Shown here in pieces: positions 1,071-59,803 of a stretch of 64,000 bases of DNA. The stretch comes from a virus, in IMG/VR virus record IMGVR_UViG_3300006155_000004. The stretch is one strand, 5' to 3'. The position numbers and the translations under genes were made by a program. How positions within the stretch are numbered: the stretch's first letter is position 1; every line of letters starts with the position of its first letter. The notes below the pieces were generated by a model, which ran no database searches, was not told the origin of the DNA, and was given only the letters and a program-made list of their open reading frames with translations.

Positions 1071-2552
1071 TTATGCCACTGCCTGCACCTGCTGTTTATA
1101 GCGGGCATCCAGATGGATGCAGATTCCAATCATGGTTGTCATGAAAGAATAATGCTCCTTTGTGTGTATGAACATACGGTGCAGTCCGTAATCATTGAGG
1201 ATGCGGTTGTTGATACGTTCCGTGGCGGTGCGTTGATTATAAATCTTCTTATAAGCATCTGTGCCGCGGGGGACGTCGGTGTAAAGCCGGATATCCCATT
1301 CGGGCCGGGTCTTGACGACTCTCCCATATTTGGAATCGGTGCAGGAGTTTTTACATTTGGAACAGTGATCTTTCCCATAGGGGCAGCGCCACATGAGGTA
1401 ACCGCTGGATCTGTCATAACCGTTAGGCTTCATGCGCAGTTTTTCCTGACATAAGGGTGTTCCATCTTTGTCAATGGTGATGGTATCAGGAATTGTTTTT
1501 GGCCGGCCGCATTTGTCGTTCAGGTCGATGAAGGCCCGTATTCCCCTGTTTTTAAGGATCCGGTAGGTGGGGTAATTGTCCATTGCAGAATCCAGGCACA
1601 TATTCGAAGTGGAAACAGCCGGCATATGTTTTTCCAGTTCATGGAAAGCGACAAGGAAATTGACCGAATCATGACGCTTTGCACTGGTAAAACGCAGAAG
1701 CAGGGGGAGATCTGTCCTGAGTTCACTGTTATAGCAGGATAATTGGAACAAAGTGTAGCCGAAGTAATATTTTTCCAGGTCGCTGTCCCAGCCCCAGGAA
1801 GCATCGGGGTCGGGGAAATGCCGCAGGTTTTCCGGTGCGCCAACCCTGTGGTGCCCGCGTGGGCAGGCATGGGTATGCACGGCGGTGCCGTCTCCGGAAA
1901 CCGTAAGGTGTTCCCTTGGTATGAGGCCGGATTCCATGGAAGGCAGGACAGCCACGTGATAGAAGAAGCGCTGCAGCCGCCCTTCAAAGTTAAAAGGGAT
2001 ATCCTTCCCGCTCATGAGCCGTTTTTCGATAGATTCTGTGATTTTGGGCTTTGCCTCCTGTGCTTTCTGTTTTTTGCCTTTGGGCTTATCCGGCTTTTTG
2101 GTGTTCCAGGAAGCCGGAAGCAGTTTGTCCCGCGCATATAAGTCCGTTGGCGGTGCAGCCCAGAGCCTGTCCATGAAGTCAAAATAAGAACCGAGGGGCG
2201 GCAGGGAATCCGAAGTGCAGCCGATGAGAGCGGCAAGGAGGCGGTCATGTTTGAGCCTGTCGACCCAAAGGGTAAGGGATAGCTTGGCCAAACCTTCTGA
2301 AAATAGAAGAAAGAAAAGGATAAAAGACCTTAAGATTTGTGGCTGGTTCTTAGCGGGCCTGCCAGTGTTGGAGTAAAAGGGCAGAAGGAACTCCATGGCC
2401 TTATCGGTATCGAAAAGGCGGAGTTTCTGCCATGGTTTCCAAAGCTCCGTATGGAGCCGGACTCTTTCAGAGGAATCGAAATGGACTTTGGATTCGTTGA
2501 GAAAGTACTTGTAATCTTGCATGGACTGCCAGTACTTGATCATAAAGTGCAC
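1071..2552 (-). CDS. DDE transposase (IS4/IS5-superfamily)
   Basis: 493-aa ORF; C-terminal YNQRTATERINNRILNDYGL matches the Y-R-E-K region typical of DDE_Tnp_1 transposases; lies between the IS inverted repeats. Confidence 0.85.
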   Translation of the reverse strand: MHFMIKYWQSMQDYKYFLNESKVHFDSSERVRLHTELWKPWQKLRLFDTDKAMEFLLPFYSNTGRPAKNQPQILRSFILFFLLFSEGLAKLSLTLWVDRLKHDRLLAALIGCTSDSLPPLGSYFDFMDRLWAAPPTDLYARDKLLPASWNTKKPDKPKGKKQKAQEAKPKITESIEKRLMSGKDIPFNFEGRLQRFFYHVAVLPSMESGLIPREHLTVSGDGTAVHTHACPRGHHRVGAPENLRHFPDPDASWGWDSDLEKYYFGYTLFQLSCYNSELRTDLPLLLRFTSAKRHDSVNFLVAFHELEKHMPAVSTSNMCLDSAMDNYPTYRILKNRGIRAFIDLNDKCGRPKTIPDTITIDKDGTPLCQEKLRMKPNGYDRSSGYLMWRCPYGKDHCSKCKNSCTDSKYGRVVKTRPEWDIRLYTDVPRGTDAYKKIYNQRTATERINNRILNDYGLHRMFIHTKEHYSFMTTMIGICIHLDARYKQQVQAVA

Positions 2553-13881: not shown

Positions 13882-15885
13882 GTGATTGAATTATTGGAAC
13901 ACAACAAAGAAACCTACAAAAGATTATGTGATTTACTGGAAAATAACAATAAATGCGCTTTAGTGCAGGCAACAGGCACAGGGAAAAGTTATATTGCAGG
14001 GAGGTACATAGAAGAACACGCAGAAACATCCTTAATACTTGTGCCAACAAACGCAATAGCTGATGCATGGGAAGAACTGCTTGCAGGAACGGAAAAGGAA
14101 GTCAATATCATAACCTATCAAGCCTTTGCGAAAGAACCGAAGAATTATCTTGATTATGATTTAGTGATTGCTGATGAAATGCACCACTTGGGAAGTGATG
14201 TATGGGGCAAGAAATTTGTTGAAACCTACTTGCAGAGCGAAAACCATAAAATCATAGGATTAACCGCTACGGAAATCCGTTATCTTGATAATTCAAGGGA
14301 TATGGCAGAAGAAATCTTTGAGAATATGAGGATTGACGGTTGCGACTTGTCAACAGCGATAAATACAGGCGTTCTTCCTACGTTCAAGTATGTTTCCGCA
14401 TTATATTGTGATGAAAGCGATTTTGACGAATGGAAAGAAAAAGCAGAGAAGATAAAGGACATAAAAACACAAACAGAACTCAAAGGGCGGTTAGATGTCT
14501 GTATTAAAAACATGGTATCGGTAAAACAGGCGGTCAATGAAAATCTGACTGACGATTACAAGAAAATCATTGTGTTTCTGAATAATGTGGAATCGAAAGA
14601 AACAGCACTCGAAATGTTTAAAGATGTGTTTCCGAAAGCTAATTTTTATGACGTGGATTACAGCAAGCAACGGACAGCGAACAATGAGCAGATAAACAAG
14701 TTTAAGGAAGACGGAAACAGGGCGGTATTGTTTGCGGTGGATATGCTGAATGAGGGAATCCATATCAAAGGTACGGATTGCGTGATTATGTTCAGAAAGA
14801 CGGTATCTCCGCAGGTGTATTTACAGCAGTTGGGGCGTGGACTTGCAAGCGGAACGGATAAAACGCCTGTTATATTTGATTTTGTTGGAAATGAAAATTT
14901 GAAATTAAAAGCAAAATATGAAGCAGAAGAAAGCGCTGAAATAATAAATCGAATAGATGGGAACTTAGATAAAGAACATAAGATAATTTTTAAAACATAT
15001 TTATCTGACATAGAAAATTGTATTAATTCGATATGCTCTTTGTGTTTCAATTATTTTAAAGAAGACGAAATTGCGTTTATTAAAGAAAATTATGGAAAGA
15101 TAAACACAAAAGAAATTGCTAAAATTTTAGGAAGAAGCAAGGGTGTAATACATAATCTTGCAGCAAGGCTTGGGATTGCAAAAACAATCGAAAACTGGAC
15201 AGATAAAGAAATAGAAATAGTCAGAAAAGAATATGCAAGCATAGGGGCAAAAGGAATAATTGAAAAATACAAAATTTCAAGAAGTGCAGATTCAATCCGT
15301 TCAAAGGCTAACAGTCTTGGAATTACTGTTAAATCCAATGATATATGGACTGATGAGCAAATAAGGTATTTAAAGGAAAACTGTACAGATAAAACATATG
15401 ATGAGATTGCGAAATATTTAGGAAGAAGCAAAAACTCTGTAATAAACAAGTTAAGAAGAATGGAAATTGATACAAATAAACAAAATTTGAAAAAGGTTTA
15501 TTCTTTTGATAAAAGAGGGAATTTCGCAAAAGAGTATAGATGCATTTCTGAATGTGCAAAGAACTTTGGAGTCGGAAATAGTTCCGTTAGGGCGGCGATA
15601 GAACACAATTACACGGTTAATGGATTTTATCTTTTCTACGAGCCGAATTTTAAGATAAAGAGCAAGACATACTCAAAAAAGAAAGTTATGAAACTCGATA
15701 AAAATCGAAACCTTATAAAGATATTTGACTCTGTAAAAGAAGCTACGGAAGAAAGCGGACTTTCCGAATTGTGGACAAGATTAAACAATAAAGTTGACAA
15801 CCATATTAAGGAAACTGAATTCGTATGGATGTATGAGGAAGATTATAAAAAGATGATTGCAGAACAGAAAGCAGGTGGAGCATGA
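13882..15885 (+). CDS. SF2 (DEAD/DEAH, ResIII-like) helicase fused to repeated HTH and homing-endonuclease-type (NUMOD-like) DNA-binding modules
   Basis: Walker A ATGTGKS, motif II DEMHH, TAT motif; C-terminal three W-T-x-x-E-I HTH-like repeats then two KKV-x-x-D-x-x-G...F-S-x-x-E-A modules. Confidence 0.75.
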   Translation: MIELLEHNKETYKRLCDLLENNNKCALVQATGTGKSYIAGRYIEEHAETSLILVPTNAIADAWEELLAGTEKEVNIITYQAFAKEPKNYLDYDLVIADEMHHLGSDVWGKKFVETYLQSENHKIIGLTATEIRYLDNSRDMAEEIFENMRIDGCDLSTAINTGVLPTFKYVSALYCDESDFDEWKEKAEKIKDIKTQTELKGRLDVCIKNMVSVKQAVNENLTDDYKKIIVFLNNVESKETALEMFKDVFPKANFYDVDYSKQRTANNEQINKFKEDGNRAVLFAVDMLNEGIHIKGTDCVIMFRKTVSPQVYLQQLGRGLASGTDKTPVIFDFVGNENLKLKAKYEAEESAEIINRIDGNLDKEHKIIFKTYLSDIENCINSICSLCFNYFKEDEIAFIKENYGKINTKEIAKILGRSKGVIHNLAARLGIAKTIENWTDKEIEIVRKEYASIGAKGIIEKYKISRSADSIRSKANSLGITVKSNDIWTDEQIRYLKENCTDKTYDEIAKYLGRSKNSVINKLRRMEIDTNKQNLKKVYSFDKRGNFAKEYRCISECAKNFGVGNSSVRAAIEHNYTVNGFYLFYEPNFKIKSKTYSKKKVMKLDKNRNLIKIFDSVKEATEESGLSELWTRLNNKVDNHIKETEFVWMYEEDYKKMIAEQKAGGA

Positions 15886-20975: not shown

Positions 20976-21531
20976 AGAAGTATCAGAAATGAATATATAT
21001 GAGTTGGCACACAATTCATGCTATGCAAAGGACGGAAAGGCAAGATATAGAGATTTTGAGGATGATTTTGACGCAAGGCAACTGGCAATAAAACTTTTGG
21101 AAAAGTATGCGGACATTCCGAATGAGTTTACTGGTGATGAAGATTTTGATGATTTTATGATGGATTCCTTGCAGTATGGAACAGGAGATATACTTGGATT
21201 GATTGCGGTGTTTTATCGGAATCTGTGGGCGATGGCTGATTTAAGGGAAACATTAAAGCGTTTTGAGGATTTGAAAGAACAAGGGACAATGATTGAACTT
21301 CCTTGCAAGGTTGGAGATACATTTTGGACTTTTACGGAGGAATCGAGAGGTGTATATGACGGAGATGTGGTAGATATCCAAGTTGAAAAAATAGAAATCC
21401 GATTTAATGACGGAAAACCATACTTTTATATTGACAACATGGAATTTGATATTGACTGTTTTGGAAAAACAATTTTTCGCACTAGAGAAGAAGCAGAGAA
21501 AAAGATAAAGGAGATTATGAGTAATGGATAA
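20953..21531 (+). CDS. hypothetical protein (LKLP/ELP...GKTIF-EEAE paralog family)
   Basis: ORF track; GGAGG RBS; start could also be ATG 20989. Confidence 0.6.
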   Translation: MNRLTTNKEVSEMNIYELAHNSCYAKDGKARYRDFEDDFDARQLAIKLLEKYADIPNEFTGDEDFDDFMMDSLQYGTGDILGLIAVFYRNLWAMADLRETLKRFEDLKEQGTMIELPCKVGDTFWTFTEESRGVYDGDVVDIQVEKIEIRFNDGKPYFYIDNMEFDIDCFGKTIFRTREEAEKKIKEIMSNG

Positions 21532-21934
21532 AATCACAGTCTACACCGACGGCTCAGTCCTAAACAATGGTTCTTCTGACAGCGGTTGCGGTTGGGCTTG
21601 CAAGCTGATTTACCGAGGGCATGAGAAAATGAAGTCAGGAGGCGATAAGGGCAAGACAAACAATGTTATGGAGATGACAGCAGTTCTGCAAGCCATGAAA
21701 TCCATAACGGACAAGTCTATTCCAGCGGAAGTGTTTTCGGACAGTAAGTATGTGGTGGAAACACTGAATGGGAATTATCAGATTAAGAAGAACGTGAAGT
21801 TGTGGCAGGAACTTATGGCGGAGAAAGAGAAGTTTGCAGATATTCGGTTTATTTGGGTTAAGGGGCATGATAAGAATGTTCATAACAATGATGTTGACAG
21901 GCGGGCGGTAGCAGAAGCCAAGAAAGCGAGGTAA
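21524..21934 (+). CDS. rnhA: ribonuclease HI
   Basis: DEDD signature: VYTDGS, NNVMEMTAV, SDSKYV, VKGH...NDVDRRA. Confidence 0.85.
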   Translation: MDKITVYTDGSVLNNGSSDSGCGWACKLIYRGHEKMKSGGDKGKTNNVMEMTAVLQAMKSITDKSIPAEVFSDSKYVVETLNGNYQIKKNVKLWQELMAEKEKFADIRFIWVKGHDKNVHNNDVDRRAVAEAKKAR

Positions 21935-21938
21935 GTAA

Positions 21939-23906
21939 ATGGATTATCAGCAATTAGATATATTCGACATGACAAGACAGACATTTCAGATAGACAAGCC
22001 TATCCGATTGATTGAACTCTTTGCAGGTGTCGGCAGTCAGGCAATGGCATTGCGGGATTTGGGAGCGGATTTTGAGCATTACAGAGTGGTTGAGTTTGAT
22101 AAGTTTGCAGTCGCAAGCTACAATACCATTCACGGTACAAACTTTGAAACAACGGATATTCGGAATATAAGTGGTGTGGATTTAGGGATTTGCGACACAG
22201 GCAAATTCTGCTACATAACGACATATTCATTCCCTTGTTTCGTTGGAAACACGTTTGTTTTGACTAGAGATGGTTTAAAACAAATTGATGGTATAATTCC
22301 TGGCGATTATGTCCTTACTCATTCTAATGAGTATAAAAAGGTTTTGAAAAGCGGATATACTGGAACGAAAAACATATTTTCCGTGAAAGGTATGTGTATT
22401 GATGAAATAAAATGCACAAATAATCACAAATTTTATGCAAGGAAAATGATTGGACACTATCCGAGGAATAAAAACGGAAAAAGATTCAGAACAAGAGAAT
22501 TTTTAAGACCTGAATGGATTGAATGCGAAAGCCTAACAAAAGATTATTACTTAGGTGTTGCAACCAACCAAAATAGCGTAATTCCAACTTGGGATGGAAC
22601 TGATTTTAAATGGTCTGATGGAAGAAAATCAAGGCATAAGAATCAACTATCAAAACTCATGGGGAATCATAGTTTTTGGTGGATAATCGGCAGATATTTA
22701 GGAGATGGGTGGATTAGAACGCAAGGTGGAGTAATTATATGTTGCTCAAAAAACGAAACGCATGAAATTCTTCCGCATTTAAGAAATTGCGTTTTTTCCT
22801 ATTCCATATCAGCGGAAAGAACGGTAAATAAGATACACATAGCAATAAAGGAATTGCAATGTTTTTGTGAACGATTTGGAAGAGGAGCAAAAGGAAAACG
22901 CCTTCCGGGATTTGTTTTTGATATGCCTTGCGAGTTGTTGAAGAGTTTGATTGATGGCTATGTAAGTTCTGATGGATGTTACACACAAGGGCTGTATAAA
23001 ATTAGTAGTATTAGCAAGGAACTTGTCTACGGATTTGCTCAATTGGTTGCAAAAGCATATAAAGTACCATACAGAATATATAAGACAGAAAGACCTAAAA
23101 AGTGCAAGATAGAGGGAAGAACAGTAAATCAAAACGACACATATCAGTTGGTTTGGAAGTTGCAGAAGAAAAAACAAGACAAGGCTTTTTATGAAAAAGG
23201 TTATGTATGGTTTCCGATTAAGAGCGTGGAAAATACAAATTCAAAAGAGAAAGTATACGACATAACGGTTGAAGACTCTCATAGTTTTACTGCAAACGGA
23301 GCAATTGTTCACAACTGTCAGGATTTATCAGTCGCCGGAAAGCAAAAAGGCATGACCAAAGGAAGTGGTACAAGGTCGGGTTTGCTATGGGAAGTAGAAC
23401 GGTTGCTGAATGAATGCATCGAACTCCCACAAGTCCTGCTGATGGAGAATGTTCCTGCCGTACATTCACAAGCCAATATACCAGACTTCCAGAAGTGGAT
23501 TGATTTTCTTGAAAGCAAAGGGTATTCAAACTACTGGAAGGATCTGAACGCTAAAGATTATGGTGTGGCGCAAAATCGCGATAGATGCTTTATGGTGAGC
23601 TTTTTGGGCGAATGGAATTACAAATTTCCACAGCCGATACCGCTTGAAAGAAAGTTAAAGGACTATTTAGAAGATGAGGTTGACGAGAAGTATTACATCA
23701 ATAATGAAAAGTCGCAGAAATTGATACAGACACTTATTGAGAATGGAACATTGCAAGGCTGTATTGGGAATATAAATCCAAGCGGAAACGGAATGAACGG
23801 AAATGTATATGCGGGAGATTTAAGTCCAACAATTACCACGAATAAAGGCGATGGCGCAAAGATTTTTGTTGACCTATCCCTAAAAAATCCAAACAAAAAA
23901 CGATAA
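21939..23906 (+). CDS. DNA (cytosine-5) methyltransferase, N-terminal polypeptide (motifs I-VIII plus first TRD), interrupted by an intein
   Basis: Motif I ELFAGVGSQ; ...SFP | intein | CQDLSVAG (motif IV); LLMENVP (VI); QNRDRCFMV (VIII). Confidence 0.85.
   Translation: MDYQQLDIFDMTRQTFQIDKPIRLIELFAGVGSQAMALRDLGADFEHYRVVEFDKFAVASYNTIHGTNFETTDIRNISGVDLGICDTGKFCYITTYSFPCFVGNTFVLTRDGLKQIDGIIPGDYVLTHSNEYKKVLKSGYTGTKNIFSVKGMCIDEIKCTNNHKFYARKMIGHYPRNKNGKRFRTREFLRPEWIECESLTKDYYLGVATNQNSVIPTWDGTDFKWSDGRKSRHKNQLSKLMGNHSFWWIIGRYLGDGWIRTQGGVIICCSKNETHEILPHLRNCVFSYSISAERTVNKIHIAIKELQCFCERFGRGAKGKRLPGFVFDMPCELLKSLIDGYVSSDGCYTQGLYKISSISKELVYGFAQLVAKAYKVPYRIYKTERPKKCKIEGRTVNQNDTYQLVWKLQKKKQDKAFYEKGYVWFPIKSVENTNSKEKVYDITVEDSHSFTANGAIVHNCQDLSVAGKQKGMTKGSGTRSGLLWEVERLLNECIELPQVLLMENVPAVHSQANIPDFQKWIDFLESKGYSNYWKDLNAKDYGVAQNRDRCFMVSFLGEWNYKFPQPIPLERKLKDYLEDEVDEKYYINNEKSQKLIQTLIENGTLQGCIGNINPSGNGMNGNVYAGDLSPTITTNKGDGAKIFVDLSLKNPNKKR
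22236..23315 (+). mobile_element. intein with LAGLIDADG homing-endonuclease domain (360 aa) inside motif IV of the C5-MTase
   Basis: Starts CFVGNTFVLTRDG, TNNH block B, IIGRYLGDGW and LIDGYVSSDGC LAGLIDADG-like motifs, ends AIVHN followed by Cys(+1). Confidence 0.8.
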
Positions 23907-23976
23907 GCAGCTGTATCACAGCAAGGGAAGATAGGGGAATATCAAACCAACAGTCAGTAGGAAAAGGAGTGGTGGA

Positions 23977-24687
23977 ATGTCAAAGGAAATCTTAGGAAGT
24001 ATTTATTATAAGACGTCAGAGGATTTTATGCGTGGGATTTATCCCATGGCAAGAACAGTTAAGGCAGAGCAACGTGATTTGGCGGTGGTGGAAATGGAAG
24101 AAAGACGATTAGGAAATATTTACGGCTTTGACGGTGGGAATTACGCAGGGAATGTGTATGATGATAAGGCTTTATCTCCAACAATACGGACATATCAATG
24201 CGGAAATCAACAGCCTATGATTGTTGCCATGCGTGGCAGAAATCCCAGAAACCCGTCAGACCGTACTGCAGGGAGTCCAACAGAACAGAGGTTAGATACG
24301 AACGGTCAAGGTATCTGCAATGCGCTGACGAGCATGCAGAAAGATAATATGGTGCTAGTGAAAGCAGATTTTTGCATTGGAGGACTGCAGGAGCATCAAA
24401 CAGCGAGAATAGACGGCATATCTCCATCTCTAACGGCAGCGATGGGTATGGGAGGAGGGCAAACACCTCTGATAAATTGTCAATACCGCATACGAAAACT
24501 AACCCCGCTTGAATGTTGGCGGCTTATGGGATTTTCTGATGAAGATTTTCATAAGGCAGAGGAAGTCAATAGCAATTCGCAACTCTATAAACAGGCAGGG
24601 AACAGCATTGTAAACAATGTATTAATTGCGATTTTCGGGCAGATGATACCCAGAAAGGAAAATTTGTACAAAGAATTACAAGACTGA
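23977..24687 (+). CDS. DNA (cytosine-5) methyltransferase, C-terminal polypeptide (further TRDs plus motifs IX-X)
   Basis: RKLTPLECWRLMGF (IX) and YKQAGNSIVNNVL (X); own AAGGAG RBS 7 nt before the ATG. Confidence 0.8.
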   Translation: MSKEILGSIYYKTSEDFMRGIYPMARTVKAEQRDLAVVEMEERRLGNIYGFDGGNYAGNVYDDKALSPTIRTYQCGNQQPMIVAMRGRNPRNPSDRTAGSPTEQRLDTNGQGICNALTSMQKDNMVLVKADFCIGGLQEHQTARIDGISPSLTAAMGMGGGQTPLINCQYRIRKLTPLECWRLMGFSDEDFHKAEEVNSNSQLYKQAGNSIVNNVLIAIFGQMIPRKENLYKELQD

Positions 24688-24691
24688 ATGA

Positions 24692-25141
24692 TTGGAGGCA
24701 AAGAGGTTTTCCCGGGAAATAAAGCTGGCTTTACTCCAAAGGATTATGAAAGATTGCAAATACCCAAATTGTGTAGAGTGTGCAAATGATGATTGCGATA
24801 TGGAACAAAAGGACATAGCGGCGCTGTTAAAACGCAGACGGTGGAATGCGAATCCGACAAAATATCGGCAAAAACAGATAGATTACAAGGCAAAAATTAA
24901 GGAGAATCTACCGCATTGTGACGAATGCACAGATTGCGTTCTTGTGAAAAAGGATAAAGGCGATGGTTTCAGAAGACTTTGTATAGCGGAAATGAGATTA
25001 GTTGAACAGAAAGTGTCAAATTCTCCGCAATGGTGCAGAAAGCGAGCGCCGAGCAAAGATTATCTGAAACGCCGTGAAAATATACTAAGGCAGAAGAAAG
25101 AAAAATATTGGAAAGAGAGGGCGGGAAATGAGCAGAGTTAA
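24692..25141 (+). CDS. hypothetical Cys-rich protein
   Basis: ORF track; start uncertain (TTG 24692 or ATG 24746). Confidence 0.5.
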   Translation: MEAKRFSREIKLALLQRIMKDCKYPNCVECANDDCDMEQKDIAALLKRRRWNANPTKYRQKQIDYKAKIKENLPHCDECTDCVLVKKDKGDGFRRLCIAEMRLVEQKVSNSPQWCRKRAPSKDYLKRRENILRQKKEKYWKERAGNEQS

Positions 25142-26883: not shown

Positions 26884-26980
26884 GAATATAACAAGCTTTG
26901 TTTGAGTTTTGAGCCTTTTTATGGTAAAATATAAACTATATCAAGGCTCTTTTCCTAAACAAAAGAAAGGAGATTTGTCA

Positions 26981-28171
26981 ATGGGAAAAGATTTGAAAGG
27001 AAAGGAGTTGGGTGTTGGGTTAATCCAACGCAAAGACGGGCTGTATCAGGCGAGATATTCTAACAGATGGGGAAAGAGAAAAACTATCTATGGGAAGAAT
27101 CTGCGAGAACTGAGAAAAGAGCTTGCGGAGGCTATTGCGGGAAACGAGAACTTTGCAAGCACAAAATACGAAATAACGCTTGATAAGTGGTTTGACAGAT
27201 GGATGGAGGTTTATAAAGAGAAAAGTATAAGACCAAACACCAAGAGAGAATATACGCACATATACAAGAAAAATATTTCTCCGTACATAGGAGAAAGAAA
27301 CATCAATTCTCTTGTCAAATCCGATATTCAAAGAATTATTGATAGGGCAAGTGACGACAGTTATGCTTATGAGCGGCAGAATAAAATCAAAGTGATTCTT
27401 CGAGATATGCTGCAGAGGGCAGTTGAAGATAATCTTGTTGTCAACAATCCCGTGAGCGGTATAAAACTTAGGGCAGATAAGGAAATCAAGGCAAAATCAT
27501 TGACAGTTGAAGAACAATCATTATTCTTTGATTATTGCCGCAACACATTTTATGATAACCTTTTCAACGTGGCGGTTAATACGGGATTACGGCCGGGCGA
27601 GCTATTTGCCTTGCAATTTTCGGACATAGATCTTGATAATGGGCTTATAGACGTAAACAAAACGCTTGTTTACCAAAAATATCTTGATGATGAATGTAAA
27701 ACGTTTCATGTCGAACCGCCAAAAACTAAGAAAAGCTACAGAAAAGTGCCAATCAACAGCGTTTGCAGAAAGTTTTTAGAAAGTCAATTAGAATTGAAAT
27801 CAGTCGTATCGCAGAAAAGACCAAAACAACAGAATGACTACGTATTTGTGACAAAGTTTAATACGCCTCTTAACTCTGTTATTTATTCGGATGCGATAAA
27901 AGCCGTAATTCGCCAGATAAACCTAGCAAGGCCGTTTGATAATCAGTTTGAGGTATTCAGCGGACATACATTCCGGCACACATTTGCTACTAGGTGCTTC
28001 GAGAGTGGGGTGGACGCAAAAGTGGTGCAAAGCTATCTTGGTCATGCAAGCCTTAAAATGACAATGGATTTATATACACATGTCACAGAGGAAAAATCAA
28101 TGAAAGACATAGAAAAAATTGTTCCGGGGATCGAAAACAAGGTCGTGAACATAAGGAGAAAAATGGCTTAA
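26981..28171 (+). CDS. int: tyrosine site-specific integrase
   Basis: In-frame ATG 26981 with AAAGGAG RBS; GLRPGEL (Arg), HTFRHTFAT (H-x-x-R), LGHASLKMTMDLYTH (His/Tyr). Confidence 0.9.
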   Translation: MGKDLKGKELGVGLIQRKDGLYQARYSNRWGKRKTIYGKNLRELRKELAEAIAGNENFASTKYEITLDKWFDRWMEVYKEKSIRPNTKREYTHIYKKNISPYIGERNINSLVKSDIQRIIDRASDDSYAYERQNKIKVILRDMLQRAVEDNLVVNNPVSGIKLRADKEIKAKSLTVEEQSLFFDYCRNTFYDNLFNVAVNTGLRPGELFALQFSDIDLDNGLIDVNKTLVYQKYLDDECKTFHVEPPKTKKSYRKVPINSVCRKFLESQLELKSVVSQKRPKQQNDYVFVTKFNTPLNSVIYSDAIKAVIRQINLARPFDNQFEVFSGHTFRHTFATRCFESGVDAKVVQSYLGHASLKMTMDLYTHVTEEKSMKDIEKIVPGIENKVVNIRRKMA

Positions 28172-29802: not shown

Positions 29803-29825
29803 GAAAATAAATGGAGGTGTTGAAA

Positions 29826-30800
29826 ATGGCAGATTTAAATTGCTTGTGGGGAATATACTACGATATGATAAAAAGATGTTATGATAAAAATTATTTTTTA
29901 TACAAAAGTTATGGAGAAATCGGAGTAACCGTTTGCCCTGAATGGTTAAATAATAGAAGTAGTTTTAACGAATGGGCAAATTTGAAAAATTACAAAAAGG
30001 GAATGCGCTTAAAATTGCGTGAAAAAGAAGTTGGATATTTTCCGAGTAATTGCTATTTTAGTAACAAAAGAGAAAGAAAGTTAAAAGAAAATAAACAAAA
30101 AGAAGGCAGTAAAACATACAGAAGTGATAAATTCAAAAGTATTTTAGGCGTTGAAAAATATATAGATAGTCCTATATACATATCTTATTATGCAATGATT
30201 GATAGATGTTGTAATCCGAAGAACAAGTCCTATAAATGGTATGGCGCAAAAGGCATAAAAGTATGTGATGAATGGACAGAAGATATAATCGGATTTGAAA
30301 GATTTTCTGTTTGGTCTTTAGGGAATGGGTGGAGAAAAGGTCTTACAATAGACAGAATAAATGCGGATAAAGATTATTGCCCAGAAAATTGTAGGTGGAT
30401 AACTATACAAGAACAGCAGATAAACAAATCAAATTCTTTAAATTTTATGTATAGTGGTCAGATTAGAAATTTATCGGAAATAGCGAAAGAAAATAATTTG
30501 TGTTATTCAAATTTGTATAGGAAAATAATGTATGATAATTATTCTGTTGAAGATGCGATAAATTATTTAAAAAGAAGAAGAAAAGGAAAGAAAAATAGCA
30601 TGTACCATTCAAAACAAGTTGCGCAAATAGATAGTAATGGAGAAATAGCAAAAGTTTTTCCAAGCGCAAAATCAGCGGCTGATTCCTACGGAAAATCTTC
30701 TGGAAGCTTAACAAAGGCTTGTAGAAACGGGACAACATGGTTGGGGAAAAGATGGAAATATATAACCGAAGATGAATATGACGAATTTTTAAAAAAGTAG
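29826..30800 (+). CDS. HNH_3-like / NUMOD-like DNA-binding protein (His replaced by Arg in the HNH core)
   Basis: Two Y-x-x-M-x-x-RC...YG-x-x-GI-x-VC-x-EW modules, LTIDRINADKDYCPENCRWIT, C-terminal V-x-Q-I-D-x-x-G...F-x-S-x-x-x-A module. Confidence 0.55.
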   Translation: MADLNCLWGIYYDMIKRCYDKNYFLYKSYGEIGVTVCPEWLNNRSSFNEWANLKNYKKGMRLKLREKEVGYFPSNCYFSNKRERKLKENKQKEGSKTYRSDKFKSILGVEKYIDSPIYISYYAMIDRCCNPKNKSYKWYGAKGIKVCDEWTEDIIGFERFSVWSLGNGWRKGLTIDRINADKDYCPENCRWITIQEQQINKSNSLNFMYSGQIRNLSEIAKENNLCYSNLYRKIMYDNYSVEDAINYLKRRRKGKKNSMYHSKQVAQIDSNGEIAKVFPSAKSAADSYGKSSGSLTKACRNGTTWLGKRWKYITEDEYDEFLKK

Positions 30801-35351: not shown

Positions 35352-35686
35352 AGCGTTACCGCCCTGAACAAGTGATAAACGCTCTACACCGAGGTTTCCC
35401 TCTGATAAATACAATCATATCACAGCGGAGACCTCTTTTCAAGATATTTTTACAAAAGATGAACCCACGCTCATGGGAGAAAGAGGTACATAATAAGAAG
35501 AAAAATAATGATAATGCTTTACGCGCTCTCTTCAATCATTGATGACATTGCATATTTCGTTGTCGGAAATTGCGAGGATTTTCAATGCGAGATTAAAACT
35601 CATTGGAGAGAACATTCTATCGGTTAGTATGTTTTCTGCTGATTTGGGGAGTGGCTACCGCTCCCTTTTGTGATATGGAGGTATTT

Positions 35687-36667
35687 ATGGAAAAGCCAAC
35701 GCTTAATTGGAGATGTAAAGATATATCTGGGTATAGGAAAGGAACGATAACTGTAAAAAATCCAACCGATAGCAGAAGTAAGAACGGATCTATAATATGG
35801 GAATGCGAGTGTGAGTGCGGAAACAAGGTTTATTTAACAAAACAACAAATAGAGAAAAATCCTTATTGTGGAAAACGCAATAAAACATATAATTTTATAG
35901 ATTTTAAAGACAAACAAATAGGTGTTCTTCATGTTATCGAATATACAGGAGATTCAAAATGGTTATGCGAATGTGAGTGTGGAAATCGGAAAATTGTTCA
36001 TAGGTCTGTTTTGCGAAAAGGAGCAACATATGCTTGCTCATGCAATCACAAACTTCATAAATCCGATTGCAATACAACGCATGGAAAGAGCAATACAAGG
36101 CTTTATCATGTTTGGTGCGGAATGAAAAACAGATGTTACAATAAAAATTTAGATGAATATCACAGATATGGCGGCAGAGGAATAACAATCTGCCCTGAAT
36201 GGCTGGGGAAGAACGGCTTTCAGAATTTTTGTAAATGGGCATATGCGAATGGGTACGACGAAAATGCAAAGCGTGGAGATTGTACAATAGACAGAATTAA
36301 CAATGATGGAAATTATGAACCGTCAAATTGCCGGTGGGCTACATATATTGAACAAGCCAATAATAGGAGTGACAATCATTTAATAGAGATAAGTGGGGTT
36401 GTTAAAGGAATTAAGGATTGGTGCGATGAATACGGAATAAAAATCGGAACGTATAAAACGAGAGTTCGCAGAGGAACGGACGATGTTTCTGCTATTACTA
36501 CGCCAATAAGAAAATTCAGCAAAGATTTAACCGAAAAAGAGAGAAAAGAAAGAAAACAAAAGAGACTTGAAAGAATTAAAAAATGGCAGGAAGAAAACAA
36601 AGATAAAGTTAAAGAATATCAAAGAAAAAGCGAGGAAAAGAAAAAATCAGAAAAGAAAGCCGATTAG
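35687..36667 (+). CDS. HNH_3-like DNA-binding protein (Arg in place of the HNH His) with CxC zinc-ribbon repeats
   Basis: In-frame ATG 35687 with TGGAGG RBS; WECECECGN / WLCECECGN repeats; LYHVWCGMKNRC...YGGRGITICPEW...CTIDRINNDGNYEPSNCRWAT. Confidence 0.55.
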   Translation: MEKPTLNWRCKDISGYRKGTITVKNPTDSRSKNGSIIWECECECGNKVYLTKQQIEKNPYCGKRNKTYNFIDFKDKQIGVLHVIEYTGDSKWLCECECGNRKIVHRSVLRKGATYACSCNHKLHKSDCNTTHGKSNTRLYHVWCGMKNRCYNKNLDEYHRYGGRGITICPEWLGKNGFQNFCKWAYANGYDENAKRGDCTIDRINNDGNYEPSNCRWATYIEQANNRSDNHLIEISGVVKGIKDWCDEYGIKIGTYKTRVRRGTDDVSAITTPIRKFSKDLTEKERKERKQKRLERIKKWQEENKDKVKEYQRKSEEKKKSEKKAD

Positions 36668-57960: not shown

Positions 57961-58048
57961 CATATCTAACACCGTACATAAAGCGTTTGTGCGGAATAGT
58001 CAAAGCGTGACTTACTTTTTATTTGAAGGGAGGTTGCGCTTTTCTTTT

Positions 58049-59803
58049 ATGGCAAGTCAAGAATTACTCAAAGAAATTTCCGATGCAGAAAAATATATAG
58101 AAAGACACGGGATAGATATTGACGCCGTTAATGCGTTTCATACTTATGTATTCTGGGCGGATGAAGAAGATAAGGACATAGAAACTGCCCTTAAAATCGC
58201 ACCAAGGGCAAAAGAACTGATGAACCAGTATGTCATAAACGGTGCAGGCGGCGACATATGGGAACTTGAAAAGTTCTGCTTTGCCAACAAGACAGGGCAT
58301 GAAATGGTGGATAAGTGGTATGAGATATTGAAGTTGGAGGCTCTACATCTATTTGAAAGTTTCTGCTTTTACATGGAAAAGAACCGCCCGCCAGAGGAAC
58401 GGTTTTACCAGCCAAGAGTAAATCCGCTAAGACAAGTGGCGCAGCTTATACAAGACCTATTCGATGATAAACTTGACGAGGGAATGGTATTCTGCCCCGG
58501 ACGAATAGGAAAAACCCAAATAGTCAAAATGGGTAATTTATGGTTCGGTTCAAACCGACCAGAACGGTCAAATTTATATTCTGCATACTCTGACAAGATA
58601 ACCGGCGGATTTTATGACGGGACAAACGAACTAATTACCGACCCAACCTATACATACGCTGAAATTTTCCCAAAGAATGTTGAGAAAAAGCCGATTACAG
58701 ACGGAAAAGACTTGACGATAGACCTTATCCGAAAGAAAACTTACCCAACATTTACCATGCGGTCTATCTACGGAACATTGAATGGAGCGTGTGACTGTGA
58801 CGGATTGGGCATATATGACGACTTGTTTAGTGGTATTGATGAAGCGTTGAGCGAGGACAGGCAGAGGACAGTGTGGGGCAAGTTTGACAATAACTACATG
58901 CCAAGAATAAAGCCAGGGAAAGCAAAACTATTAGGAATTGGCACAAGATGGGCACCAAAAGATGTACAAGGACGCAGACTTGAACTTTTAAATAATGACC
59001 CTGACTATGCAGACATACGGCATAGAGAAATCATAATACCAGCATTAAACGAAAACGGAGAAAGCAACTTTGATTATCCATATAAATTAGGCTATACAAC
59101 GCTTGATTATAAGCGCAGAATGGCTTCTTTTGAAAACAATGACGATATGGCTTCGTGGTTTGCGCAGTATCAGCAAGAACCGATTGAGCGAAAAGGTCAG
59201 ATGTTCAATGTTGACAACATGAATTTCTTCAAACCGCAGGAAATCGAAGGAATAAGACCAGATAGAATATTTGCAGCAAATGACCCGGCTTATGGAGGTG
59301 GCGACTTTGTATCAATGCCTATTTGCTATGAAATCAACGGAAATCATTATGTGGTTGACGCTGTTTACAACGATGGGGAAAAGGACATTACAATTCCAGA
59401 GGTCACAAGCAGAATGGAAGACCATTTAGATAAATTCCCAAAGAAAACAGCAGAAGTGCATTTCGAGGAAACAAAGACTACAGACGGATATCGGAAAGAC
59501 TGTGAAAAGATATGGAAAGAAGACGGATATCCAATAAACACGACCCATGACCCGGCGGACAATCAAAGCGCAAAAATGGACAGGATAAAAAACCATGCGC
59601 CAGATATAAGAAAACTGTACTTTTTGGACATGAAGTATCAAAGCAAGGAATACAGAAAGTATTTTCAAAACATTCTATCCTGCACCTACGAGGGGAAAAT
59701 GAAACATGATGACGGAATTGACTCTACGGCGCAGCTTTGCGACATGATTTATGGAAATAAGCGCAAAAATCGTAAAACAATCATAATGCCAAGCCCAATC
59801 TAA
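58049..59803 (+). CDS. terL: terminase large subunit
   Basis: Walker A PGRIGKT; size; position immediately upstream of the portal region; start ATG 58049 (weak RBS) inside ORF 57989..59803. Confidence 0.85.
   Translation: MASQELLKEISDAEKYIERHGIDIDAVNAFHTYVFWADEEDKDIETALKIAPRAKELMNQYVINGAGGDIWELEKFCFANKTGHEMVDKWYEILKLEALHLFESFCFYMEKNRPPEERFYQPRVNPLRQVAQLIQDLFDDKLDEGMVFCPGRIGKTQIVKMGNLWFGSNRPERSNLYSAYSDKITGGFYDGTNELITDPTYTYAEIFPKNVEKKPITDGKDLTIDLIRKKTYPTFTMRSIYGTLNGACDCDGLGIYDDLFSGIDEALSEDRQRTVWGKFDNNYMPRIKPGKAKLLGIGTRWAPKDVQGRRLELLNNDPDYADIRHREIIIPALNENGESNFDYPYKLGYTTLDYKRRMASFENNDDMASWFAQYQQEPIERKGQMFNVDNMNFFKPQEIEGIRPDRIFAANDPAYGGGDFVSMPICYEINGNHYVVDAVYNDGEKDITIPEVTSRMEDHLDKFPKKTAEVHFEETKTTDGYRKDCEKIWKEDGYPINTTHDPADNQSAKMDRIKNHAPDIRKLYFLDMKYQSKEYRKYFQNILSCTYEGKMKHDDGIDSTAQLCDMIYGNKRKNRKTIIMPSPI

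What the first reader, a model, noticed from the sequence alone, without database searches (positions are those of the whole stretch)
22236..23315. Intein with LAGLIDADG endonuclease inserted exactly in catalytic motif IV (P-C) of a phage C5 cytosine methyltransferase
- **N-extein:** the 655-aa ORF runs from motif I (ELFAGVGSQ) to ...TTYSFP.
- **Inserted 360 aa:** they begin CFVGNTFVLTRDG, include TNNH, and carry two LAGLIDADG-like motifs (IIGRYLGDGW, LIDGYVSSDGC). They end ...NGAIVHN.
- **C-extein:** CQDLSVAG...LLMENVP...QNRDRCF follows directly.
- **Consequence:** deleting 22236-23315 regenerates F-P-C-Q-D-L-S. The +1 splice nucleophile would therefore be the methyltransferase's own catalytic cysteine, making enzyme activity strictly splicing-dependent.
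Basis: partly seen in the sequence, partly recalled or inferred. Interest (0 to 1): 0.7.

Follow-up and report, generated by a model that had tools for sequence, protein, structure and literature searches.

The report
Intein splitting a phage cytosine methylase
A self-splicing protein element (an intein carrying a homing endonuclease) sits exactly in front of the catalytic cysteine of a gut-phage DNA cytosine methyltransferase. It is an ordinary intein in kind, but it occupies an insertion site that no paper I could search describes and that proves to be very widespread, including in P1-like phages of E. coli.

Summary
Observation confirmed; interpretation supported.

- **The insert.** Window 22236-23315 encodes a 360-aa class-1 intein with a LAGLIDADG homing-endonuclease domain. 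It lies between Pro and Cys of motif IV (FP|C) of a C5 DNA methyltransferase in a Lachnospiraceae-type temperate phage.
- **Evidence.** Pfam and NCBIfam intein models pass their cut-offs. An AlphaFold model (pLDDT >90 in most 10-residue blocks of the intein) matches full-length VMA inteins and PI-SceI. All splicing residues (C1, T61/H64, D342, H359, N360, C+1) are invariant in 107 relatives. Removing the insert restores an ungapped match to M.MpeI and to M.HhaI, whose catalytic Cys81 lies in the aligned FPC.
- **Homing signature.** Intein-free alleles up to 93% identical exist with an intact TYSFPCQDLS. The nearest intein-bearing allele is only about 75% identical in the extein.
The 655-aa ORF is only the N-terminal subunit. 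Motifs IX-X lie in the next ORF (23977-24687). The intein allele family is also very large: 692 clusters at 50% identity, 214 IMG/VR contigs, several phyla and archaea. A distant member is present or absent precisely in Dmt of P1-like phages (152 of 5426 complete E. coli genomes).
- **Verdict.** New member of a known kind, moderate interest. Splicing and homing were not tested experimentally.

The parts
21939..23906 (+). Precursor ORF (655 aa, 75.1 kDa): N-terminal subunit of a C5 DNA methyltransferase interrupted by an intein
   Evidence: PF00145 E 2e-39, matched in two stretches on either side of the insert.
21939..22235 (+). N-extein (99 aa). Motif I FAGVGS at 22020-22037. Ends ...TTYSFP, the Phe-Pro of motif IV.
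22236..23315 (+). Intein (360 aa, 41.6 kDa): Hint splicing domain with a nested LAGLIDADG endonuclease domain. GC 0.349 against 0.409 in the exteins.
22236..22274 (+). Intein block A, CFVGNTFVLTRDG. Cys1 (22236-22238) is the first splicing nucleophile.
   Evidence: Cys1 is invariant in 107 relatives (C100).
22407..22436 (+). Intein block B, IKCTNNHKFY (Thr61-x-x-His64)
   Evidence: T160 and H163 are invariant.
22683..22712 (+). LAGLIDADG motif 1, IIGRYLGDGW (putative catalytic Asp157)
   Evidence: G251 and G257 are invariant and D256 is kept in at least 90% of relatives. The fold matches I-DmoI and PI-SceI.
22947..22976 (+). LAGLIDADG motif 2, LIDGYVSSDG (putative catalytic Asp246)
   Evidence: G340 and D345 are invariant. 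PF14528 covers intein residues 237-292.
23253..23288 (+). Intein block F, VYDITVEDSHSF (Asp342, His349)
   Evidence: D441 and S449 are invariant and H448 is kept in at least 90% of relatives.
23295..23315 (+). Intein block G, NGAIVHN (His359, terminal Asn360)
   Evidence: H458 and N459 are invariant. TIGR01443 passes its cut-off.
23316..23906 (+). C-extein (196 aa plus stop). Cys+1 (23316-23318) is the motif IV catalytic cysteine. Motif VI ENV at 23445-23453 and motif VIII QNRDR at 23571-23585. The tail holds a target-recognition-like segment, GNVYAGDLSPTITT.
   Evidence: C460 is invariant.
23895..23900 (+). A6 run just before the ORF1 stop. The closest intein-free allele has A7 and reads on about 30 codons further, overlapping the start of ORF2. 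The window keeps that coding sequence in the -1 frame (23907-23976).
23977..24687 (+). C-terminal subunit ORF (236 aa, 26.4 kDa): target-recognition modules, motif IX RKLTPLECWRLMGF (24493-24534) and motif X GNS (24598-24606)
   Evidence: PF00145 profile positions 264-322. TIGR00675 positions 277-329. The same two-ORF layout occurs in the intein-free relatives L003 and L004.

Best explanation
**What it is.** Window 22236-23315 is a canonical class-1 intein of 360 aa: a Hint splicing domain with a nested single-chain LAGLIDADG homing endonuclease. It is inserted between Pro and Cys of catalytic motif IV (FP|C) in the N-terminal subunit of a two-ORF C5 DNA methyltransferase. The gene lies in the replication module of a temperate phage of Lachnospiraceae type.

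**How splicing should work** (inferred from the standard class-1 pathway; every residue it needs is present):
1. The 75-kDa precursor is translated.
2. Cys1 performs an N-S acyl shift.
3. Cys+1, which is the methyltransferase's own catalytic cysteine, attacks that thioester.
4. Asn360 cyclises, assisted by His359, and releases the 41.6-kDa intein.
5. An S-N shift leaves a 33.5-kDa subunit with a native ...TYSFPCQDLS... loop.

**After splicing** (inferred). The spliced subunit pairs with the 26.4-kDa product of ORF 23977-24687, which supplies the target-recognition region and motifs IX-X, to form the active enzyme. The unspliced precursor should be inactive, because 360 residues separate the Pro and Cys of the catalytic loop.

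**How it spreads** (inferred from its distribution). The freed intein acts as a site-specific endonuclease on intein-free alleles at about ...ACATATTCATTCCCT|TGTCAGGATTTATC.... Repair from the intein-bearing copy then installs the intein. This homing would occur during co-infection or between a phage and a prophage.
For: **Intein identity**
- PF14890 scores 48.8 bits against a cut-off of 35.8, and TIGR01443 scores 33.9 against 15.6.
- PDB sequence hits are inteins: TliVMA, Spl DnaX, DnaB.
- The AlphaFold2 model built on 107 sequences has mean pLDDT 85.6, with most 10-residue blocks of the intein (residues 100-459) above 90.
- Foldseek best hits are full-length endonuclease-containing inteins: 7qsu at E 1.8e-19, then PI-SceI, PI-PfuI and PI-PkoII. 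C5 methyltransferases (M.MpeI, M.HhaI) and I-DmoI follow.

**Conserved residues**
- Splicing residues C1, T61, H64, D342, H359, N360 and C+1 are invariant across 107 relatives.
- Of the two LAGLIDADG aspartates, one is invariant and the other is kept in at least 90% of relatives.

**Exact site**
- The spliced sequence aligns without a gap through motif IV to M.MpeI and M.HhaI.
- It gives one uninterrupted dcm match of 135.5 bits.

**Empty sites and patchy distribution**
- Intein-free alleles of 86-93% identity have a continuous TYSFPCQDLS and near-identical DNA at the junction.
- 94 intein-free alleles are closer in the extein core than the nearest intein-bearing allele, which is 78% identical.
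- At least 13 gains or losses are needed on the extein tree.

**Foreign composition.** GC is 0.349 in the intein and 0.409 in the exteins.

**Family size and uniformity**
- 692 clusters at 50% identity score E<=1e-30. Nearly all of the best 150 sit at [FS]P|C...HN|C[QT]x[LIF]S.
- 108 further genomic and viral loci have in-frame inteins of 311-375 aa and no mini-inteins.

**Context**
- The two-ORF enzyme layout is conserved with and without the intein.
- The surrounding genes are phage genes.
Against: - **No experiment.** Splicing, endonuclease activity and methylation are all inferred.
- **Endonuclease profile.** The LAGLIDADG_3 Pfam hit is marginally below its cut-off (22.2 against 22.5).
- **Possible gene decay.** In this lineage ORF1 is about 30 codons shorter than in its closest relative because of an A7-to-A6 change.
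  - This could mean the gene is starting to decay.
  - Against that, the identical 655-aa protein occurs on 12 contigs from independent samples, and every catalytic motif is intact.
- **No donor found.** No sampled intein-bearing allele is close enough to be the donor. The best has 69% identity in the intein.
- **Mosaic pattern is ambiguous.** Divergence from the closest intein-free allele is about 18% from the gene start to +300 nt of the junction and about 1% beyond. This fits co-conversion but also ordinary phage mosaicism.
Confidence: 0.9

Rival explanations
1. The intein still splices, but its endonuclease is no longer active. On this reading the element is a vertically inherited passenger in this phage lineage, not an actively homing element.
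For: - The LAGLIDADG_3 profile score is just under the Pfam cut-off.
- No close donor allele was found. The nearest intein is 69% identical.
- The same precursor protein is found unchanged on 12 contigs, which fits vertical persistence.
Against: - Both LAGLIDADG motifs keep their acidic residue and glycines. These positions are invariant or kept in at least 90% of 107 relatives, which implies purifying selection on the nuclease.
- No endonuclease-deleted mini-inteins appear among 108 further loci or the top hits.
- Presence and absence are patchy on the extein tree, needing at least 13 events.
- The endonuclease domain is modelled with pLDDT above 90 in nearly every 10-residue block, and the model matches I-DmoI and PI-SceI.
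Confidence: 0.2
2. The methyltransferase gene in this phage is decaying. The intein would then be retained in a gene that no longer makes an active enzyme, and the insert need not splice.
For: - ORF1 is truncated by a 1-nt shorter A-run (A6 at 23895-23900 against A7 in L005 and L004).
- This leaves about 30 conserved codons (TISSCITAREDRGISNQQSVGKGVVE...) out of frame.
Against: - Motifs I, IV, VI and VIII in ORF1, motifs IX and X in ORF2, and all intein catalytic residues are intact.
- ORF2 has its own ATG preceded by a GGAG.
- Many intein-bearing relatives have even shorter C-exteins of about 150 aa, so the tail is dispensable in the family.
- The identical protein recurs in independent samples.
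Confidence: 0.07
3. The intein has been co-opted as a post-translational switch. Conditional splicing (redox-, metal- or temperature-sensitive, for example through a Cys1/Cys+1 disulfide) would time or gate methylation during infection.
For: - Both splice-junction nucleophiles are cysteines, and Cys+1 is the enzyme's catalytic residue. Enzyme activity therefore necessarily waits for splicing.
- The site is kept across very many phage methyltransferases.
Against: - Nothing in the sequence specifically indicates regulation.
- Insertion at conserved catalytic residues is the general pattern for selfish inteins (established knowledge).
- The patchy distribution and abundant intein-free alleles fit a parasite better than a regulator.
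Confidence: 0.08
4. The insert is a non-splicing domain, a bacterial intein-like (BIL) domain, or an assembly chimera.
For: None beyond the absence of experimental data.
Against: - The insertion is in frame with exact boundaries.
- His-Asn is followed by Cys+1, and the flanks are the two halves of one conserved motif.
- The identical junction occurs in hundreds of independent assemblies and in cultured isolates and phages, including Schaedlerella arabinosiphila, phage Nyseid and P1-like phages.
Confidence: 0.01

Closest known systems
Full-length LAGLIDADG inteins of the PI-SceI and archaeal VMA type (PDB 1vde, 1ef0, 7qsu, 7qss; PI-PfuI 1dq3; PI-PkoII 2cw7)
   Same: - Same two-domain architecture: a Hint splicing fold with a nested single-chain LAGLIDADG endonuclease.
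- Same class-1 residues: Cys1, TxxH, His-Asn, Cys+1.
- These are the best structural matches, at E 1.8e-19 to 1e-9, and 7qsu is the best PDB sequence match.
   Different: - The host protein is different: a C5 DNA methyltransferase rather than a V-ATPase, ribonucleotide reductase or DNA polymerase.
- Sequence identity is only 12-19%.
- It is found in a gut phage, not a yeast or archaeal chromosome.
Inteins in DNA methylases of actinobacteriophages (DNMT-1/2 in Kelley et al. 2016, PMC5050341; Gogarten lab 2023, PMC9957025)
   Same: - A phage-encoded DNA methylase invaded by a LAGLIDADG intein.
- Patchy distribution and horizontal transfer between divergent methylase alleles.
   Different: - Those hosts are N6/N4 (N6_N4_Mtase) methylases, a different enzyme family and a different insertion site.
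- Neither paper mentions cytosine-C5 enzymes or motif IV.
Dmt of P1-like phages and phage-plasmids (OP279344.1, RCS47, vB_EcoM-Ro157c2YLVW), plus Lactobacillus phage Nyseid and Escherichia jumbo phage A4
   Same: - In P1-like Dmt the intein is at the identical motif IV position: GGTP|CFTAGH...VVHN|CQAFSIAG.
- Canonical P1 and P7 are precise empty-site alleles.
- The Nyseid and A4 methyltransferases carry a Hint plus LAGLIDADG insert at the corresponding position by Pfam coordinates; I did not read their junction sequences.
   Different: - Only about 26-31% identical to the window protein.
- The P1 host protein is a single-chain fusion of a C5 methyltransferase and Dam.
- It is annotated only as 'Dmt', 'Dam family methyltransferase' or, once, 'LAGLIDADG family homing endonuclease', never as an intein.
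M.AquI-type two-subunit C5 methyltransferases (NCBIfam NF045953 'N-terminal subunit')
   Same: - Motifs I-VIII are on one polypeptide. The rest of the variable region and motifs IX-X are on a second polypeptide from an adjacent or overlapping ORF.
   Different: - The window protein does not reach the NF045953 cut-off (23.6 bits against 93).
- It is therefore analogous in layout and is not a member of that subfamily.
M.MpeI (PDB 4dkj) and M.HhaI
   Same: - Closest solved relatives of the spliced extein (E 2e-31 and 2e-22).
- Motif IV aligns residue for residue.
   Different: - They are single-chain enzymes without an intein.
- The target specificity of the phage enzyme is unknown.

Membership tests
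Class-1 intein | Hint splicing domain (blocks A, B, F, G) recognised by profile and by fold | tested here: met
   PF14890 scores 48.8 against 35.8, and TIGR01443 scores 33.9 against 15.6. Foldseek matches TliVMA and PI-SceI at E 1e-19 to 1e-14.
Class-1 intein | N-terminal Cys/Ser nucleophile, block B TxxH, penultimate His with terminal Asn, and Cys/Ser/Thr at +1 | tested here: met
   C1, T61-N-N-H64, H359-N360 and C+1 are all present. All are invariant in 107 relatives.
Class-1 intein | In-frame insertion in a conserved site of a host protein, with intein-free homologues that are continuous across the site | tested here: met
   The spliced sequence aligns ungapped to M.MpeI and M.HhaI. Intein-free alleles of 86-93% identity have a continuous TYSFPCQDLS.
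Class-1 intein | Protein splicing demonstrated (ligated exteins plus free intein) | not testable with these tools
   Requires expression with SDS-PAGE and mass spectrometry. Expected products are 33.5 and 41.6 kDa from a 75.1-kDa precursor.
LAGLIDADG homing endonuclease (single-chain, two-motif) | Two LAGLIDADG helices, each ending in an acidic catalytic residue, in an alpha-beta-beta-alpha-beta-beta-alpha fold duplicated in one chain | tested here: met
   IIGRYLGD157G and LIDGYVSSD246G are present. These residues are conserved across relatives. The fold matches I-DmoI, I-Tsp061I and PI-SceI. Pfam LAGLIDADG_3 scores 22.2, marginally below 22.5.
LAGLIDADG homing endonuclease (single-chain, two-motif) | Site-specific cleavage of the intein-free allele, and homing | not testable with these tools
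   Indirect support only: patchy distribution needing at least 13 gain or loss events, and precise presence or absence in the P1 family.
C5 DNA (cytosine-5) methyltransferase | Conserved motifs I (FxGxG), IV (PC), VI (ENV), VIII (QxRxR), IX and X (GN) in the canonical order | tested here: met
   FAGVGS, FPC (after splicing), ENV and QNRDR are in ORF1. RKLTPLECWRLMGF and GNS are in ORF2. TIGR00675 scores 135.5 against 100.65 for the spliced N-subunit. PF00145 matches ORF2.
C5 DNA (cytosine-5) methyltransferase | 5-methylcytosine formation at a defined target sequence | not testable with these tools
   Requires expression followed by bisulfite, EM-seq or nanopore sequencing.
M.AquI-like two-subunit C5 methyltransferase (NF045953 N-terminal subunit) | Score above the NCBIfam subfamily cut-off | tested here: not met
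   23.6 bits against a cut-off of 93. The two-ORF layout is nevertheless conserved in relatives. It works like this family but is not filed as a member.

The most novel reading that the evidence does not exclude
The motif IV intein of C5 methyltransferases may be more than a parasite. Its +1 nucleophile is the enzyme's catalytic cysteine, and it is kept, always with its endonuclease, across hundreds of phage methyltransferase lineages, including P1-like phage-plasmids. It could therefore act as a conditional-splicing gate that delays or tunes anti-restriction methylation during infection, for example through a redox- or metal-sensitive Cys1/Cys+1 pair. On this reading a large, previously undescribed class of splicing-regulated epigenetic enzymes would be testable in E. 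coli with P1.
Probability: 0.08. Interest if true: 0.7.

Novelty: new member of a known kind. Interest (0 to 1): 0.42.

Why it matters
- **A new host family for inteins.**
  - It adds a major DNA-modification enzyme family, at its catalytic Pro-Cys dipeptide, to the list of intein insertion sites.
  - The only methylase inteins described in the papers I could search are in N6/N4 enzymes of actinophages.
- **Abundant but unannotated.**
  - The allele is common in gut and rumen viromes, crosses phyla and reaches methanogen-associated contigs.
  - The public records inspected here call these genes simply 'DNA cytosine methyltransferase'.
  - Domain architectures, protein lengths and methylome predictions for these genes are therefore misleading.
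- **A tractable model.**
  - The precise presence or absence of a related intein in Dmt of P1-like phages gives an E. coli system for studying intein homing between phages and phage-plasmids.
  - The same system could test whether splicing limits methyltransferase activity.
- **A practical use.** A Cys1/Cys+1 intein that leaves a native active site could serve as a switch for engineered C5 methyltransferases.

Tried and rejected
- **Megablast to phage genomes.** Megablast of 21500-24800 against 50,697 phage records found nothing. No close cultured relative exists.
- **Single-sequence structure prediction.** The AlphaFold2 model of the intein alone was unusable (pLDDT 31.5). It was replaced by the alignment-based model.
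- **Exact junction search.** An exact-match search for the N-junction 33-mer in GTDB representative genomes found nothing.
- **Literature.**
  - Nine searches and the papers followed up found no description of a natural intein in a C5 methyltransferase or in P1 Dmt.
  - The main text of the large intein survey PMC4760082 does not mention methyltransferases.
  - Absence from this library does not prove the site has never been reported; InBase and REBASE could not be consulted.
- **Co-conversion test.**
  - Divergence from the closest intein-free allele (L005) is about 18% from the gene start to +300 nt of the junction and about 1% beyond +300.
  - That flank is still closer to intein-free alleles than to any sampled intein-bearing allele.
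  - I therefore treat this as suggestive mosaicism, not proof of homing.
- **M.AquI subfamily membership.** Membership of NF045953 was tested and not met.
- **Naturally split intein.**
  - Six gene calls that start at intein residue 7 raised this idea.
  - For the one case examined (L143) it was rejected. A (TTAC)n repeat expansion causes a frameshift there.
Full report
**1. The observation**

The ORF at 21939-23906 (+) encodes 655 aa. Reading the DNA places the junction codons as follows:
- ttc-cct (Phe-Pro) at 22230-22235
- tgt (Cys1) at 22236-22238
- aac (Asn) at 23313-23315
- tgt (Cys+1) at 23316-23318

The insert is 1080 nt (360 aa) and in frame. Every quoted string is present.

**2. What the insert is**

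Profile and sequence evidence:
- Pfam Intein_splicing scores 48.8 bits against a cut-off of 35.8 for the insert alone.
- NCBIfam intein_Cterm scores 33.9 against 15.6.
- LAGLIDADG_3 scores 22.2, just under its cut-off of 22.5.
- The best PDB sequence hits are inteins: TliVMA 7qsu, Spl DnaX and DnaB.

Structural evidence:
- A single-sequence AlphaFold model was useless (pLDDT 31.5).
- A model of the whole precursor built on 107 homologues has mean pLDDT 85.6. Most 10-residue blocks of residues 100-459 are above 90. Confidence is low only at the two splice junctions and in the C-terminal tail.
- Foldseek against the PDB ranks full-length endonuclease-bearing inteins first: 7qsu at E 1.8e-19, then PI-SceI, PI-PfuI and PI-PkoII.
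- C5 methyltransferases (M.MpeI, M.HhaI) and free LAGLIDADG enzymes (I-DmoI, I-Tsp061I) follow.

Conserved residues, in intein numbering:
- Invariant in the 107-sequence alignment: Cys1, Thr61/His64 (block B), Asp342 (block F), His359, Asn360 and Cys+1.
- LAGLIDADG residues: Asp246 and the glycines Gly152, Gly158 and Gly241 are invariant. Asp157 and Gly247 are kept in at least 90% of relatives.

This is a canonical class-1 intein whose homing endonuclease is under purifying selection.

**3. Where it sits**

- With the insert removed, the protein aligns without a gap through motif IV.
  - To M.MpeI: TYSFPCQDLSV, E 2e-31.
  - To M.HhaI: GFPCQAFS.
  - Cys81 of M.HhaI is the catalytic nucleophile (established knowledge).
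- The spliced protein gives one continuous TIGR00675 match of 135.5 bits. The precursor gives two stretches.
- The +1 residue used for transesterification is therefore the enzyme's catalytic cysteine.
- That the precursor is inactive is a reasonable inference, not shown here.

**4. The host gene is only half an enzyme**

- ORF1 covers motifs I-VIII (dcm profile positions 2-219 of 329).
- Motifs IX (RKLTPLECWRLMGF) and X (GNS) are in the next ORF, 23977-24687.
- The same two-ORF layout occurs in intein-free relatives (L003, L004) and in the other contigs that carry the identical precursor.
- Many intein-bearing relatives have C-exteins of only about 150 aa. Others are fused proteins of 900-1050 aa.
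- Functionally this resembles two-subunit M.AquI-type enzymes. The protein nevertheless fails the NF045953 cut-off (23.6 against 93), so I do not file it in that subfamily.

**5. Evidence for mobility**

- Intein-free alleles with 86-93% identity over the full extein exist.
  - Their DNA at the site is ...TCATT(C/T)CC(N)|TGTCA(A/G)GATTTATC..., nearly the same as the window's reconstituted junction.
- The closest intein-bearing allele is only 73-75% identical in the extein and 69% in the intein.
- In an extein-core comparison, 94 intein-free alleles are closer than the first intein-bearing one.
  - At least 13 gains or losses are needed on the tree.
  - One caveat applies: the two sets were sampled by different queries.
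- The intein is AT-richer than the exteins (GC 0.349 against 0.409).
- Against the closest empty allele (L005), divergence is about 18% from the gene start to +300 nt of the junction and about 1% further downstream.
  - This fits a co-conversion tract but also ordinary phage mosaicism.

**6. How common it is**

- An exhaustive HMMER search with the intein finds 692 clusters at 50% identity with E<=1e-30, and 2254 with E<=1e-10.
- Nearly all of the best 150 sit at [FS]P|C...HN|C[QT]x[LIF]S of diverse C5 methyltransferases.
- 214 IMG/VR viral contigs carry it.
- GTDB genomes that carry it include:
  - Eubacterium, Treponema, Mollicutes, Ruminococcus, Christensenellaceae, Tannerellaceae and Paludibacteraceae.
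  - Cultured Lachnospiraceae: Schaedlerella arabinosiphila (two copies) and Dorea sp. 5-2.
  - Methanomethylophilaceae and Methanobrevibacter MAGs.
- In 108 further loci the intein is in frame and 311-375 aa long. No mini-inteins were found.

**7. Cultured phages, including P1**

- Cultured phages with the insert:
  - Lactobacillus phage Nyseid.
  - Escherichia jumbo phage A4.
  - Dmt of some P1-like phages, which is a fusion of a C5 methyltransferase and Dam.
- The junction sequence was read only for P1 Dmt. For Nyseid and A4 the site rests on Pfam domain coordinates.
- OP279344.1, RCS47 and Ro157c2YLVW have GGTP|CFTAGH...(341 aa)...VVHN|CQAFSIAG.
- Canonical P1 (NC_005856) and P7 have the uninterrupted GTP-CQAFS.
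- That P1-type intein occurs in 152 of 5426 complete E. coli genomes, mostly on plasmids.
  - It is annotated as 'Dam family ... methyltransferase' or, once, 'LAGLIDADG family homing endonuclease'.

**8. Genomic context**

- The window is a phage or prophage. It encodes a helicase, a DnaD-like loader, RNase H, YopX, an integrase, HNH endonucleases, a large terminase and a portal protein.
- The terminase is 99% identical to a region of a mouse-gut Lachnospiraceae MAG.

**9. Literature**

- Nine full-text searches and the follow-up reading found inteins only in N6/N4 methylases of actinophages (PMC5050341, PMC9957025).
- Nothing was found on C5 methyltransferases or P1 Dmt.
- InBase and REBASE could not be consulted.

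**10. Verdict**

- In kind this is an ordinary intein. Insertion at a catalytic nucleophile of a nucleic-acid enzyme is the expected pattern.
- What is new is the host family and site, its very wide and unannotated distribution, and a tractable polymorphism in the P1 family.
- I rate it a new member of a known kind, of moderate interest.

Noticed in passing
L146 (OP279344.1 61684-64725), L149 (P1 NC_005856 dmt), L150 (P7): Dmt of some P1-like phages and phage-plasmids carries a 341-aa LAGLIDADG intein at the same motif IV Pro|Cys site. Canonical P1 and P7 are precise empty-site alleles. The intein is present in 152 of 5426 complete E. coli genomes and is never annotated as an intein.
   Followed up: yes
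window 23895-23976: ORF1 stops after an A6 run (AAA AAA CGA TAA). The closest intein-free allele (L005) is identical for more than 70 nt around this point except that it has A7, and it reads on about 30 codons (TISSCITAREDRGISNQQSVGKGVVECQRKS*), overlapping the ORF2 start. The window keeps this coding sequence in the -1 frame. The A6 form recurs in independent samples (L001, L002). It could be a recent frameshift, phase variation or programmed slippage.
   Followed up: partly
L143 2440-2500 (Hadza gut contig; protein P0046): A (TTAC)n tetranucleotide tract encoding YLLTY lies immediately upstream of the FP|C junction and has one extra unit. This puts the N-extein ORF and the intein ORF out of frame. 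Six of the 120 closest clusters have gene calls starting at intein residue 7, which may reflect the same phenomenon. It could be a phase-variable phage methyltransferase or a pseudogene.
   Followed up: partly
window 23740-23860 and 23977-24500: Several tandem segments resembling the start of a target-recognition domain occur in the ORF1 tail and in ORF2: GNVYAGDLSPTITT, GNVYDDKALSPTIRT and GISPSLTAAMGMGGG. ORF2 segments also align to more than one position in fused homologues. This is reminiscent of multispecific phage C5 methyltransferases of the SPR and phi3T type.
   Followed up: partly
proteins P0338, P0349, P0359, P0374, P0376, P0380, P0383, P0299, P0333; Lactococcus phages 949, AM4, AM5 and P1048 (hits H25-H30): Moderately related inteins (about 29-44% identity) sit in other host proteins, with junctions such as ...SP|C...HN|CS.... 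In lactococcal 949-group phages the host protein is the anaerobic ribonucleotide reductase large subunit.
   Followed up: no
window 13882-15885: The helicase ORF (ResIII plus Helicase_C) has a C-terminal region, about aa 390-575, with HTH and NUMOD1 modules and PHROG hits to HNH endonuclease and D5-like regulator families. This may be a fused or inserted homing-endonuclease DNA-binding module.
   Followed up: no
window 26909-28171, 29811-30800, 35603-36667, 1071-2552(-): A tyrosine integrase lies in the middle of the phage region. There are also two paralogous HNH endonuclease genes and a DDE transposase on the minus strand, so the window is rich in mobile elements beyond the intein.
   Followed up: no
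window 57989-59803; L154: The large terminase is 99% identical to a region in a mouse-gut Lachnospiraceae MAG (MGBC108720), but only from residue 176 onward. The N-terminal 175 residues did not match there.
   Followed up: no
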